DNA from: a virus
Lineage: Duplodnaviria > Heunggongvirae > Uroviricota > Caudoviricetes
Length of the DNA stretch: 58,638 bases
Strand: one strand, 5' to 3'
IMG/VR virus record: IMGVR_UViG_2870479586_000001
Coordinates: 1-58,638 of that record
The stretch's first letter is position 1; every line of letters starts with the position of its first letter. The position numbers are program-made. This document shows, in pieces, positions 3,001 to 6,000 of this stretch.

Positions 3001-6000
3001 TCGGATGTAGTGAACTTTGTTGTGGGTAGAACGCAGGATTTTGCAGGGAGTGCCGTGGTGGTCGACGTACCAGGTGTTAGGAAAAATGATTCTGAACATT
3101 TTTACACCTCAGTTGGACGATGTTGAAATTTGCTGCTTTGAGGCCATCACAATCCCCATTGTTTGTTCTTAAGTTCGATCTCCTCCTGGCAACTTGCACA
3201 AGTCCGACAACCCTGAACGACCAGGCGTCTTCGTTCATCTATCGGATCGCCACACTCACAACAATGAGTGGCAGATATAGCCTGGTGGTTCAGGCGGCGC
3301 ATTTTTATTGCTGTGTTGCGCTGTAATTCTTCAATTTCTGATGCTGAATCAATGATGTCTGCCATCTTCCATTAATCCCTGAATTGTTGGTTAATACGCT
3401 TGAGGGTGAATGCGAATAATAAAAAAGGAGCCTGTAGCTCCCTGATGATTTTGCTTTTCATGTTCATCGTTCCTTAAAGACGCCGTTTAACATGCCGATT
3501 GCCAGGCTTAAATGAGTCGGTGTGAATCCCATCAGCGTTACCGTTTCGCGGTGCTTCTTCAGTACGCTACGGCAAATGTCATCGACGTTTTTATCCGGAA
3601 ACTGCTGTCTGGCTTTTTTGATTTCAGAATTAGCCTGACGGGCAATGCTGCGAAGGGCGTTTTCCTGCTGAGGTGTCATTGAACAAGTCCCATGTCGGCA
3701 AGCATAAGCACACAGAATATGAAGCCCGCTGCCAGAAAAATGCATTCCGTGGTTGTCATGCAGCCTCCCGACGGGCAAGAATCCTTGAGCCGAACGCCAT
3801 CAACTCTCCACGATCAACGGTCGTAAAGTGGCAGTGTGTACGGGGGTATGGGTGCCAGATAATGAGCATCGAGCCTTTATTATTTCCACTGACGGGTTTC
3901 TCAGTGAGTGGGTTAATAAATGCCAGTCGTCCTGCCGTGATGAATCTGACCTCACTGGCGGTTTGTATCGCTTCATGAAACCATCCGACAGATGTGTCAG
4001 CAGGCAATAACATTACACATCCCACACTACTGAATTTGTTTTCAGTGGCTGCCTTTTTCACAAAAGGGGAAATATTGCTGTATGGTGGATTCAACCAGAC
4101 ATAACCAGAGGCATATCCCATTGCTTCAGGCCATGAAGTGGTTAATGTGTTCTGCTCCTGTGAGATAAAAAGCCGACATAGTCGGTTTTTTTCGCTGGCG
4201 GCAGCATCAAGTTGAAAAACGAACTCTGCATTAAGCGCAGCAAAAATCTCTGGTGGTGTGCGCCAGCTGTCGCGATGTTCGGCAGGAGTATTGCTTCCGG
4301 TGAAATCAGTCATACAGCCCCCGTTTATTATTTATCTCCTCAGCCAGCCGCTGTGCTTTCAGGGGATTTCGGATAACAGAAAGGCCGGGAAATACCCAGC
4401 CTCGCTTTGTAACGGAGTAGACGAAAGTGATCGTGCCTACCCGGATATTATCGTGAGGATGCTTCATCGCCATTGCTCCCCAAATGCAAAACCAATTTCA
4501 GCTAGTGCCTCGTCCATTTTTTCGATGAACTCCGGCACCATCTCGTCAAAACTCGCCATGTACTTTTCATCCCGCTCAACCACGACATAATGCAGGCCTT
4601 CACGCTTCATACGCGGGTCATAGTTGGCAAAGTACCAGGCATCTTTTCGCGTCACCCACATGCTGTACTGCACCTGGGCCATGTAAGCCGACTTTATGGC
4701 CTCGAAACCACCGAGCCGGAACTTCATGAAATCCCGGGAGGTAAACGGGCATTTCAGCTCAAGGCCATTGCCGTCACTGCATAAACCATCGGGAGAGCAG
4801 GCGGTGCGCATACTTTCGTCGCGATAGATGATCGGGGATTCAATAACATTTACGCCGGAAGTGAACTCAAACAGGGTTCTGGCGTCGTTCTCGTACTGTT
4901 TTCCCCAGGCCAGCGCTTTAGCGTTAACTTCCGGAGCCACACCGGTGCAAACCTCAGCCAGCAGGGTGTGGAAGTAGGACATTTTCATGTCAGGCCACTT
5001 CTTTCCTGATCGGGGCTTTGCTATCACGTTGTGAACTTCTGAAGCGGTGATGACGCCGAGCCGTAATTTGTGCCATGCATCATCCCCCTGTTCGACAGCT
5101 CTCACGTCGATCCCGGTACGCTGCAGTATAATGTCCGGTGTCATGCTGCCACCTTCTGCTCAGTGGCTTTCTGTTTCAGGAATCCAAGAGCTTTCACTGC
5201 TTCGGCCTGTGTCAGTTCTGACGATGCGCGAATGTCGCGGCGAAATATCTGGGAACAGAGCGGCAATAAGTCGTCATCCCATGTTTTATCCAGGGCAATC
5301 AGCAGAGTGTTAATCTCCTGCATGGTTTCATCGTTAACCGGAGTGATGTCGCGTTCCGGCTGACGTTCTGCAGTGTATGCGGTATTTTCGACAATGCGCT
5401 CGGCTTCATCCTTGTCATAGATACCAGCAAATCCGAAGGCGAGACGGGCACACTGAATCATGGCTTTATGCCGTAACATCCGTTTGGGATGCGACTGCCA
5501 CGGCCCCGTGATTTCTCTGCCTTCGCGGGTTTTGAATGGTTCGCGGCGGCATTCATCCATCCACTCGGTAACGCAGATCGGATGATTGCGGTCTTTGCGG
5601 TAAATCCGGCATGTGCAGGATTCATTGTCCTGCTCAAAGTCCATGCCATCAAACTGCTGGTTTTCATTGATGATGCGGGACCAGCCATCAACGCCCACCA
5701 CCGGAACGATGCCGTTCTGCTTGTCAGGGAAGGCGTAAATTTCTTTCGTCCACGGATTAAGGCCGTACTGGTTGGCGACGATCAACAATGCGATGAACTG
5801 CGCATCGCTGGCATCACCTTTAAATGCCGTCTGGCGAAGAGTGGTGATCAGTTCCTGTGGGTCGACAGAATCCATGCCGACACGTTCAGCCAGCTTCCCA
5901 GCCAGCGTTGCGAGTGCTGTACTCATCCGTTTTATACCTCTGAATCAATATCAACCTGGTGGTGAGCAATGGTTTCAACCATGTACCGGATGTGTTCTGC

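What the first reader, a model, noticed from the sequence alone, without database searches (positions are those of the whole stretch)
3680..4463. Cassette swap at the same early-left position: Dam methyltransferase in prophage A, unrelated small ORF in prophage B
The genes flanking this position (TraR-like, MTPQQ protein, 27-aa peptide, exo) are conserved in both prophages, but the middle gene is a 185-aa DPPY-motif adenine methyltransferase in A and a 63-aa unrelated ORF in B. This is a clean example of modular exchange at a fixed junction, and the methyltransferase may act as anti-restriction or epigenetic cargo.
Basis: partly seen in the sequence, partly recalled or inferred. Interest (0 to 1): 0.4.

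Follow-up and report, generated by a model that had tools for sequence, protein, structure and literature searches.

The report
Phage Dam methylase replaces lambda orf63
In one of two lambda-like prophages sitting side by side, the small lambda gene orf63 has been swapped, exactly from start codon to stop codon, for a well-known type of phage DNA adenine methyltransferase; this is a clean but ordinary case of phage gene shuffling that databases already annotate.

Summary
Prophage A (3177-3759 and 4311-6393) and remnant B (48518-49098 and 49284-51367) are 97-98% identical. Between these flanks, A carries a 185-aa gene (3756-4313, minus strand) and B a 63-aa gene (49095-49286).

The A gene is a phage Dam-type N6-adenine methyltransferase (Pfam PF05869, 2.3e-56; TIGR01712 equivalog). 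The B gene is phage lambda orf63 (DUF1382, matching PDB 8DSB). The flanks are lambda's exo-xis block: exo, orf60a, [slot], orf61, orf73. Homology breaks at the ATG and resumes at a shared ATGA stop/start overlap.

The methyltransferase is identical to RefSeq WP_000129285.1. The Dam allele is intact in 244 of 5,426 complete E. coli genomes and truncated in 68 more, including BL21. The orf63 allele is in 2,873. Other genes also occupy the slot.

The gene has no promoter of its own and lies about 2.5 kb downstream of an operator-flanked pL-like promoter. It is therefore most likely expressed on induction or infection, not in the lysogen. Its target is probably GATC, by 47% identity to VT2 Dam.

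Verdict: ordinary lambdoid mosaicism involving known, already-annotated families. Interest is low.

The parts
3756..4313 (-). Orphan phage Dam-type N6-adenine DNA methyltransferase, 185 aa, with NPPY at residues 75-78. This is the cassette in prophage A.
49095..49286 (-). Lambda orf63 (DUF1382), 63 aa. This is the gene at the same position in remnant B.
   Evidence: PF07131 at 3e-31. PDB 8DSB (lambda Orf63) at 2e-33. phrog_292. The region is 97% identical to phage lambda, where the gene is annotated orf63.
4306..4467 (-). orf60a homologue (DUF1317) in A. Its TGA (4306-4308) lies 5 nt inside dam, and its ATG overlaps the exo stop codon (ATGA).
   Evidence: PF07026 at 2.8e-33. PGAP coordinates in the 99.8%-identical SF-468 prophage. 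Sequence read.
4464..5144 (-). exo (lambda exonuclease) in A; the upstream conserved flank.
   Evidence: ORF. Annotated as lambda exonuclease family in the matching records. About 98% identical to the B copy.
3676..3759 (-). 27-aa hydrophobic ORF (MTTTECIFLAAGFIFCVLMLADMGLVQ), joined by ATGA overlaps to dam upstream and orf61 downstream. It is not annotated and its coding status is unproven.
   Evidence: An identical peptide ORF is present in lambda. It is preceded by GGAGG-N4-ATG, encoded in the last codons of dam. No family hit.
3464..3679 (-). orf61 homologue, 71 aa from MTPQQ; the downstream conserved flank.
   Evidence: phrog_303 at 4.7e-36. PGAP calls the same 216-nt gene, WP_000188870.1. 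Labelled 'orf61' in phage PhiR30_1. Aligned with lambda.
3147..3365 (-). orf73 homologue, a TraR/DksA-type zinc-finger protein. A-B homology ends in its last codons, near 3177-3184.
   Evidence: PF01258 at 2.5e-8. TIGR02419 at 2.7e-14. End of homology seen.
6783..6831 (-). Probable oL/pL of prophage A. A promoter-like site (TTGATA-17-TATTAT, 6817 to 6789) lies inside a 49-nt operator-type repeat also found at the cI-cro intergenic region (8848-8896).
   Evidence: Promoter scan: the best match in 2600-9200, 10 of 12. Repeat D1 and inverted repeats I1 and I3. Sequence. S24/HTH repressor at 8127-8855. Function is inferred, not shown.
49259..49441 (-). orf60a homologue in B. It runs 28 nt into orf63.
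   Evidence: (PGAP DUF1317 in the 100%-identical record).
49015..49098 (-). 27-aa ORF in B, differing from the A copy by one residue (G12V).
48803..49018 (-). orf61 homologue in B (71 aa).
48483..48704 (-). orf73 (TraR-like) in B, followed by ea22 (47938-48486) as in lambda.
   Evidence: (Ead_Ea22 at 1.2e-12).

Best explanation
The locus is the exo-xis stretch of the leftward early (pL) operon of a lambdoid prophage integrated at the thrW tRNA gene. At the position where phage lambda and the neighbouring remnant B carry orf63, prophage A carries an orphan phage Dam-type N6-adenine DNA methyltransferase. The replacement is exact, from start codon to stop codon.

The gene has no promoter or terminator of its own. 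It is chained to its neighbours by overlapping stop and start codons. It should therefore be silent while the CI-like repressor holds pL, and be made early after induction or infection, together with the Red recombination genes.

Its most likely job is to methylate replicating phage DNA, probably at GATC, faster than the host Dam can. Packaged genomes would then be fully methylated and better protected against methylation-sensitive nucleases in the next host. In exchange, prophage A has lost orf63, a non-essential gene that the literature describes as favouring lytic growth.

The allele probably arose once, by recombination at the gene boundaries. It has since spread among E. coli lambdoid prophages through the highly conserved flanks.

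Shown here: the identity of both genes, the exact junctions, the operon context, and the distribution. Inferred: timing of expression, GATC specificity, the protective role, and the history.
For: - **Junctions and flanks.**
- **orf63 identity.**
- **Orphan status.** The neighbours are the conserved exo-xis genes, no nuclease gene is adjacent, and this is the only (D/N/S)PP(Y/F/W/H) ORF of at least 100 aa in the window.
- **Operon context.** No promoter-like site lies on the minus strand between exo and dam. There are ATGA overlaps at exo/orf60a, dam/27-aa ORF and 27-aa ORF/orf61, and orf60a ends 5 nt inside dam. The pL-like promoter sits inside operator-type repeats shared with the cI-cro region.
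- **GATC inference.** The protein is 47% identical over its full length to VT2-Sakai Dam. That gene's record likens it to HP1 Orf13 and T1 M.T1. M.EcoVT2Dam is reported to target GATC (PMC6602927).
- **Silence in lysogens.** M.EcoMIV, predicted to be a Dam homologue, was poorly transcribed in strain EC958 (PMC4659465). No motif could be attributed to prophage Dam homologues in two O111 strains (PMC6602927).
- **Gene-sized mobility.** DNA similarity to relatives covers only 3755-4313. Relatives sit in various early-left and nin contexts.
- **Spread.** The cassette is at least 99% identical in 241 genomes. It occurs with at least three different integrases or sites and in the sequenced phage PhiR30_1.
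- **orf63 is dispensable and described as pro-lytic.** PMC10869804 and PMC8614690.
Against: - No activity, target site or expression was measured for this protein.
- At 47% identity to the nearest characterised enzyme, the recognition site could differ.
- A GATC methyltransferase is formally redundant in a Dam-positive E. coli host. The claim that it supplements limiting host Dam during lytic growth rests on general knowledge of under-methylated lambda DNA, not on data here.
- GATC is equally depleted in A (observed/expected 0.65) and B (0.71), so composition gives no support.
- The structure model is only moderate (mean pLDDT 69), with low confidence over residues 1-17 and 32-44, where cofactor-binding residues might lie.
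- The promoter and terminator scans are consensus matches. Promoter-like counts in the region equal the shuffled expectation.
- An antiterminator for this prophage was not identified.
Confidence: 0.7

Rival explanations
1. Lysogen-expressed epigenetic cargo. The methyltransferase is made in the lysogen and changes the host methylome and gene expression, as in lysogenic conversion.
For: Some prophage methyltransferases do this, for example the Stx-phage M.EcoGIII system discussed in PMC6602927. Consensus scans cannot exclude a weak internal promoter.
Against: No promoter-like site lies upstream on the coding strand. Start and stop codons overlap the neighbours. The gene is inside the operator-controlled leftward operon. 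M.EcoMIV, predicted to be a Dam homologue, was poorly transcribed in EC958. If the target is GATC, the host Dam already saturates it: 99.9% of GATC sites are methylated in the lysogens studied.
Confidence: 0.08
2. The enzyme is active but has a different or relaxed specificity (not GATC), giving broader protection against restriction or other defence systems.
For: It is only 47% identical to the characterised VT2 Dam. The literature stresses that homologous methyltransferases can change targets, for example enzymes 68% identical with different sites (PMC6602927). Non-specific prophage adenine methyltransferases exist in E. coli, such as M.EcoGI/GII.
Against: The VT2-Sakai record likens its Dam to the HP1 and T1 enzymes, and VT2 Dam is reported as GATC. 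GATC specificity for HP1 and T1 Dam is from my own knowledge. The alignment to VT2 Dam is full-length with few gaps. The non-specific M.EcoGI/GII enzymes are named as separate enzymes from the Dam homologues in that paper.
Confidence: 0.17
3. A developmental or recombination role rather than anti-restriction. By methylating GATC fully, the enzyme would shut off MutH-directed mismatch repair on Red recombination intermediates. Alternatively it would act with the adjacent Orf61-like DNA-binding protein to tune the lysis-lysogeny decision, taking over the niche of orf63.
For: The gene sits directly after the recombination genes in the window and in most relatives. An Orf61 homologue follows it through an ATGA overlap in 6 of 7 early-left contexts examined. 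The exo-xis genes as a group modulate lysogenisation and induction (PMC3824215, PMC8614690). Host Dam affects Stx prophage stability (Murphy et al. 2008, seen only as a citation in PMC3824215).
Against: The linkage may simply reflect the fixed order of the early-left operon. The same family also sits in the nin region, away from recombination genes and orf61. There are no functional data.
Confidence: 0.12
4. The gene is a decaying, non-functional passenger.
For: 68 genomes, including BL21, carry only a truncated copy. The neighbouring element B shows how far such prophages can decay.
Against: The ORF is intact, with all subfamily-invariant residues and the NPPY motif. The cassette is at least 99% identical and full-length in 241 genomes. 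It is carried by the sequenced phage PhiR30_1. The truncations are deletions of the surrounding prophage, not point decay of the gene.
Confidence: 0.03

Closest known systems
M.EcoVT2Dam, the Dam methyltransferase of Stx2 phage VT2-Sakai (933W L0094 group)
   Same: Same Pfam/TIGRFAM family. 47% identity over the full length with a conserved NPPYSNI motif. A small (about 175-185 aa) orphan methyltransferase of a lambdoid phage. Reported target is GATC (PMC6602927).
   Different: It is located in the nin region between ninB and ninE on the rightward operon, not in the exo-xis region on the leftward operon. The two are about 53% different in sequence, so the target of the window's enzyme is inferred only.
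RefSeq WP_000129285.1, 'phage N-6-adenine-methyltransferase', and the methyltransferase of Escherichia phage PhiR30_1 (PV340558.1)
   Same: The gene sequence is identical (100% DNA identity over 3600-4480 in 11 listed genomes), with the same flanks and the same slot. PhiR30_1 matches at 98% over 3000-5200, and its protein is 100% identical.
   Different: Nothing of substance at the locus. The rest of the prophage differs. For example, the SF-468 prophage has lambda-type tail genes where the window has contractile-tail genes.
Phage lambda exo-xis block (orf60a-orf63-orf61-orf73-ea22)
   Same: Remnant B is 97% identical to lambda across the block, with the same gene order. Prophage A keeps exo, orf60a, orf61 and orf73 at 97-98%.
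   Different: In A, orf63 is replaced by the methyltransferase, and ea22 by a DUF4222 gene. The lambda reference has a 1-nt longer A-run that truncates orf61 to 61 aa, whereas A and B encode the full 71-aa form. The papers I read describe the block as conserved and, in the term searches I ran, mention no methyltransferase allele.
Lambdoid phage mosaicism (modular exchange at gene boundaries)
   Same: Near-identical flanks, an abrupt switch to unrelated sequence exactly at gene boundaries, and several alternative genes at one slot: orf63, Dam, a 250-aa unknown protein and a DndB-like protein.
   Different: It is not a classical 'moron', because the cassette lacks its own promoter and terminator and is translationally chained into the operon.

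Membership tests
Phage N6-adenine DNA methyltransferase (Pfam PF05869 Dam / TIGR01712 phage_N6A_met) | Score above the curated family cut-offs over the full length of the model | tested here: met
   PF05869: 190.5 bits against a cut-off of 28.1, model positions 1-168 of 169. TIGR01712 equivalog: 165.6 bits against 97.05, positions 3-165 of 165.
Phage N6-adenine DNA methyltransferase (Pfam PF05869 Dam / TIGR01712 phage_N6A_met) | Catalytic motif IV, (D/N/S)PP(Y/F/W) | tested here: met
NPPY at residues 75-78, invariant in 26 relatives and aligned with the NPPY of VT2 Dam.
Phage N6-adenine DNA methyltransferase (Pfam PF05869 Dam / TIGR01712 phage_N6A_met) | Class I S-adenosylmethionine-dependent methyltransferase fold | tested here: met
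Phage N6-adenine DNA methyltransferase (Pfam PF05869 Dam / TIGR01712 phage_N6A_met) | Cofactor (SAM) binding motif | tested here: inconclusive
   An invariant D36-x-A38-A39 stretch exists, but it lies in the low-confidence part of the model (residues 32-44, pLDDT below 50). I did not map it onto a cofactor site.
Phage N6-adenine DNA methyltransferase (Pfam PF05869 Dam / TIGR01712 phage_N6A_met) | m6A methylation of DNA at GATC | not testable with these tools
   Inferred only, from 47% identity to VT2 Dam and the report that M.EcoVT2Dam targets GATC (PMC6602927).
Lambda Orf63 (DUF1382, PF07131); applies to the gene in B | Family score above the cut-off and match to the solved lambda protein | tested here: met
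   107.8 bits against a cut-off of 27. 8DSB at E 2e-33, with 59 of 62 aligned residues identical.
Lambda exo-xis block under pL | Gene order exo, orf60a, X, orf61, orf73 on one strand, with high identity to lambda | tested here: met
   B is 97% identical to lambda. The flanks of A are 97-98% identical to lambda-type phages.
Lambda exo-xis block under pL | Transcription from a repressor-controlled leftward early promoter | tested here: inconclusive
   A promoter-like site lies inside operator-type repeats shared with the cI-cro region, and the repressor gene is next to it. This is architecture only. No expression data are available, and no antiterminator was identified.
Restriction-modification system | A cognate restriction endonuclease gene adjacent to the methyltransferase | tested here: not met
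   Both neighbours are conserved exo-xis genes, identical in the allele that lacks the methyltransferase. The enzyme is therefore an orphan.
Phage 'moron' (autonomous added transcription unit) | Own promoter and terminator flanking the inserted gene | tested here: not met
   No promoter-like site lies on the coding strand upstream. Start and stop codons overlap those of the neighbours. GC content is not different from the flanks.

The most novel reading that the evidence does not exclude
The Dam-type methyltransferase and the Orf61-like protein that follows it through an overlapping stop/start codon may form a functional pair. Orf61 is predicted in the literature to be homeodomain-like. Under this reading, the methyltransferase is a regular member of the exo-xis decision module, not a defence-evasion gene. 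It would link the methylation state of phage or host DNA to recombination or to the lysis-lysogeny choice, and replacing orf63 with it would swap one way of biasing that decision for another.
Probability: 0.08. Interest if true: 0.5.

Novelty: already known. Interest (0 to 1): 0.15.

Why it matters
It matters little beyond bookkeeping.

It gives a tidy, codon-exact example of how lambdoid phages exchange single genes inside an operon while keeping translational coupling.

It also adds a caveat for work on the exo-xis region, which treats orf60a-orf63-orf61-orf73 as a conserved block. In about 9% of the complete E. coli genomes that carry this backbone (312 of 3,366), orf63 is replaced by a methyltransferase or its remnant. 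The same slot can also hold other genes, including a DndB-like one.

If the enzyme's target and timing were measured, the result would say whether lambdoid phages top up Dam methylation during lytic growth. It would also suggest what phage-encoded Dam enzymes are for. A 2020 paper I read says this is still not well understood (PMC7556043).

Tried and rejected
- **GATC frequency.** I compared observed/expected GATC counts, hoping for a signature of a phage-borne GATC methyltransferase. The ratio is 0.65 in A and 0.71 in B, so it does not discriminate.
- **Base composition.** GC content across the cassette (44-51%) is no different from the flanks, so there is no sign of foreign origin.
- **Solved structures by sequence.** Only a chance hit was found (E 0.28).
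- **Source genome.** No complete E. coli genome holds the whole tandem arrangement. The best record covers only the B side (70% of the query). SF-468 matches 1-15747 at about 99% and then diverges.
- **Literature.** The protein accession returned nothing. Term searches in the exo-xis papers for a methyltransferase allele returned nothing relevant. Fang et al. 2012 is not held. A search for the PhiR phage names found only a paper that mentions sister phages (PhiR47, PhiR68).
- **A second methyltransferase or orf63 paralogue in the window.** None was found.
- **A moron or part of a restriction-modification system.** Both were considered and rejected (see the membership tests).
- **Strict mutual exclusion of Dam and orf63.** Rejected, because some E. 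coli prophages carry a 75%-identical Dam and a DUF1382 gene in the same region (L008 and L010).
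Full report
**1. The observation**

- The two copies are nearly identical from exo through the end of a 55-62-aa ORF. They then become unalignable. They are nearly identical again from a 27-aa ORF through the MTPQQ protein and most of a TraR-like protein.
- blastn gives the homologous blocks as A 4311-6393 with B 49284-51367 (about 98%) and A 3177-3759 with B 48518-49098 (about 97%).
- Between them, A has a 185-aa ORF (3756-4313, minus strand) and B a 63-aa ORF (49095-49286, minus strand).
- On the upstream side, similarity runs up to and including the ATG of the middle gene, with one 1-nt indel 6-7 nt before it.
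- On the downstream side, similarity resumes at ATGAC. There the TGA of the middle gene overlaps the ATG of the 27-aa ORF.
- The exchange is therefore exact from start codon to stop codon: A 3760-4310 against B 49099-49283.

**2. What the genes are**

- The A gene matches Pfam PF05869 'DNA N-6-adenine-methyltransferase (Dam)' at 2.3e-56 over the whole model.
- It matches the NCBIfam equivalog TIGR01712 'phage N-6-adenine-methyltransferase' at 165.6 bits, against a cut-off of 97.
- It matches PHROG 111 'DNA methyltransferase'.
- Its catalytic motif is NPPY (residues 75-78), not DPPY. It keeps all 57 invariant columns of an alignment with 25 relatives of 66-84% identity.
- No solved structure is detectable by sequence.
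- The B gene is phage lambda orf63. It matches DUF1382 at 3e-31 and the NMR structure 8DSB at 2e-33. The whole B stretch is 97% identical to lambda itself.
- The flanks are therefore lambda's exo-xis block:
  - exo
  - orf60a (DUF1317)
  - [the slot]
  - orf61 (the MTPQQ protein)
  - orf73 (the TraR-like protein)
- After orf73, B continues with ea22 as in lambda, whereas A has a DUF4222 gene.

**3. Setting in the window**

- The window starts in proA, followed by tRNA-Thr (thrW, 1369-1444).
- The last 46 nt of thrW plus 9 nt beyond it (55 nt in all) are repeated at 1399 and 42534. This brackets prophage A.
- Prophage A carries the following:
  - an integrase at 1459-2622
  - a lambda-like early region
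  - an S24/HTH repressor at 8127-8855
  - a Q antiterminator
  - terminase, portal and capsid genes
  - a contractile tail sheath and a baseplate protein
  - a tail-fibre assembly protein
  - a Hin-type invertase
- Straight after the second repeat comes element B, with its own integrase (42620-43753).
- B also holds an IS3 element, a PACE transporter gene, a LysR gene and the lambda-like ea22-to-gam stretch. These are followed by a truncated P gene and a disrupted inverse autotransporter gene.
- B is thus a decayed remnant, and the two elements sit in tandem at thrW.
- No complete E. coli genome in the collection has the whole arrangement. Strain SF-468 matches window 1-15747 at about 99%, then has lambda-type late genes instead.

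**4. Expression context**

The methyltransferase gene is chained into the operon:

- The exo stop overlaps the orf60a start (ATGA).
- orf60a ends 5 nt inside dam.
- The dam stop overlaps the start of the 27-aa ORF (ATGA).
- The stop of the 27-aa ORF overlaps the orf61 start (ATGA).

The last codons of dam (R-E-A-A-stop, CGG GAG GCT GCA TGA) encode GGAGG four bases before the downstream ATG. This ending is conserved in relatives from other genera.

No promoter-like site lies on the coding strand between exo and dam.

The best promoter-like site in 2600-9200 is TTGATA-17-TATTAT at 6817-6789 on the minus strand. It lies inside a 49-nt repeat rich in TTGCTATTG-type elements, and that repeat recurs at 8848-8896, at the start of the repressor gene. 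This is the layout of lambda oL/pL and oR.

A Panacea-domain gene pair between repressor and promoter occupies the position of lambda rexAB, and it ends at a strong hairpin at 6965-6986.

I infer that dam is transcribed from pL after induction or infection and is repressed in the lysogen. This is architecture, not measurement.

**5. Distribution**

| Collection | orf63 allele | Dam allele | Notes |
|---|---|---|---|
| 5,426 complete E. coli genomes | 2,873 genomes (at least 80% coverage) | 244 genomes intact | 3,366 genomes match the backbone |
| 50,697 phage records | 176 records (at least 80% coverage) | 1 record (PhiR30_1, host E. coli C) | |

- The cassette is at least 99% identical in 241 of the 244 genomes. 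PGAP already names it 'phage N-6-adenine-methyltransferase' (WP_000129285.1).
- A further 68 genomes carry only its 3' two-thirds. In BL21, this is the DLP12 remnant at argU, where a deletion joins it to a truncated ren gene.
- The intact allele occurs with at least three different integrases or insertion sites, and with different neighbouring early genes.
- Other genes occupy the same slot. Strain STIN_95 has a 250-aa protein with no family. Strain NCTC9967 has a 354-aa DndB/DGQHR protein that also replaces orf61.
- Dam and orf63 are not strictly exclusive. Some E. coli prophages carry a 75%-identical Dam and a DUF1382 gene in the same region.

**6. Relatives**

- Proteins of 65-84% identity are common in prophages of Klebsiella, Enterobacter, Citrobacter and other Enterobacteriaceae. 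All those with a name are called phage N-6-adenine-methyltransferase.
- In the loci I read, DNA similarity to the window covers only the ORF itself, not the flanks.
- Most relatives sit between the recombination genes and the integrase. Several lie directly after a DUF1317 gene.
- In 6 of 7 such early-left contexts, an Orf61 homologue follows directly through an ATGA overlap.
- Others sit in the nin region. Examples are a Rahnella prophage and VT2-Sakai, whose dam lies between ninB and ninE.
- The VT2-Sakai enzyme is 47% identical to the window's over the full length.
- The VT2-Sakai record likens its enzyme to HP1 Orf13 and T1 M.T1. M.EcoVT2Dam is reported to target GATC (PMC6602927).

**7. 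How it most likely works**

- Shown: an intact orphan methyltransferase of a known phage family, placed codon-exactly in the leftward early operon.
- Inferred:
  - It is made early in lytic growth.
  - It methylates adenine, probably in GATC.
  - It brings fast-replicating phage DNA to full methylation before packaging.
- That lambda DNA is under-methylated by the limiting host Dam is my own background knowledge, not a result here.
- The benefit would be protection from methylation-sensitive nucleases in the next host.
- The cost is the loss of orf63, which is dispensable and described as pro-lytic (PMC10869804, PMC8614690).
- Published methylomes bear on the lysogen-cargo idea. A prophage methyltransferase predicted to be a Dam homologue was poorly transcribed in one lysogen, and no attributable motif was found in others.
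- Rival readings cannot be excluded without experiments: a different target site, a role in recombination or in the lysis-lysogeny decision, or a dead gene.

**8. Novelty and verdict**

- Both genes belong to known families.
- The protein is identical to an existing RefSeq entry.
- The same arrangement is already annotated in a sequenced phage and in hundreds of genomes.
- Gene-boundary exchange is the textbook pattern of lambdoid mosaicism.
- The one point I did not find in the exo-xis papers, in the term searches I ran, is that the 'conserved' block has a methyltransferase allele at the orf63 position.
- That is a useful footnote, not a discovery. Interest is low.

Noticed in passing
window 1369-1453 and 42534-42588: Prophage A and remnant B sit in tandem at the thrW tRNA-Thr gene. 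A 55-nt stretch, made of the last 46 nt of thrW plus 9 nt beyond it, is repeated exactly at 1399 and 42534. Each element has its own integrase (1459-2622 and 42620-43753). No complete E. coli genome in the collection shows the whole arrangement.
   Followed up: partly
window 3676-3759 and 49015-49098; lambda locus L004 at about 2120-2200: An unannotated 27-aa hydrophobic ORF (MTTTECIFLAAGFIFCVLMLADMGLVQ) is joined by ATGA overlaps to the genes on both sides. It is preceded by GGAGG in A and is identical in phage lambda. It competes with the 93-aa reading of orf61 used for phage Phi24B. A Pseudescherichia prophage has a called 38-aa hydrophobic ORF in the same place after its Dam (L016 3555-3671). 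Whether it is translated is untested.
   Followed up: partly
window 3372-3467 and 48711-48806: A 31-aa ORF between orf61 and orf73 is identical in lambda and contains a terminator-like hairpin (3443-3425, minus strand). The literature mentions a 31-aa peptide gene (orf2313) found in this region of lambda by ribosome profiling. I could not check whether it is the same ORF.
   Followed up: no
lambda locus L004 2031-2216, compared with window 3464-3679 and 48803-49018: The lambda reference sequence has a run of 7 A where A and B have 6. This shifts the frame and truncates orf61 to 61 aa. Both copies in the window encode the full 71-aa protein. This fits the remark in the literature that lambda Orf61 looks truncated.
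   Followed up: yes
window 3756-3775; loci L006-L012 at the 3' end of their Dam genes: The conserved C-terminus of the methyltransferase (R-E-A-A-stop) encodes GGAGG-N4-ATGA. This is a ribosome-binding site plus an overlapping start codon for whatever gene lies downstream. It is kept in relatives from other genera whose flanks are unrelated.
   Followed up: partly
locus L013 (E. coli BL21, NZ_CP060121.1 536205-536573): The DLP12 prophage remnant of BL21 carries the 3' two-thirds of this same methyltransferase cassette (98.6% identical), next to an identical orf61. A deletion joins it to a truncated ren gene. 68 complete genomes have this kind of partial copy.
   Followed up: yes
window 6965-7934: A Panacea-domain (SocA-like antitoxin) gene and a partner ORF lie between the repressor gene and the putative pL, in the position of lambda rexAB. 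They end at a strong bidirectional hairpin (6965-6986). They are probably a lysogen-expressed toxin-antitoxin or defence module.
   Followed up: no
loci L018 (STIN_95) 1751-2503 and L019 (NCTC9967) 1426-2490: The slot after orf60a holds yet other genes in other E. coli prophages. One is a 250-aa protein with no family hit. The other is a 354-aa DndB/DGQHR protein (PF14072, 3.8e-46) that also replaces orf61.
   Followed up: partly
window 19816-40529: Prophage A combines a lambda-type early region with contractile-tail late genes: a tail sheath at 27016-28512 and a baseplate J protein at 35159-36217. It also has a tail-fibre assembly gene followed by a Hin-type invertase (39057-39647) and a GIY-YIG protein (39705-40529). 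The otherwise 99%-identical early region in strain SF-468 is joined to lambda-type tail genes instead.
   Followed up: partly
window 46948-47730: Remnant B encodes a dATP/dGTP pyrophosphohydrolase fused to a DUF551 domain, just beyond ea22. It also carries non-phage cargo between its integrase and this gene: an IS3 element, a PACE efflux transporter gene and a LysR regulator gene.
   Followed up: no
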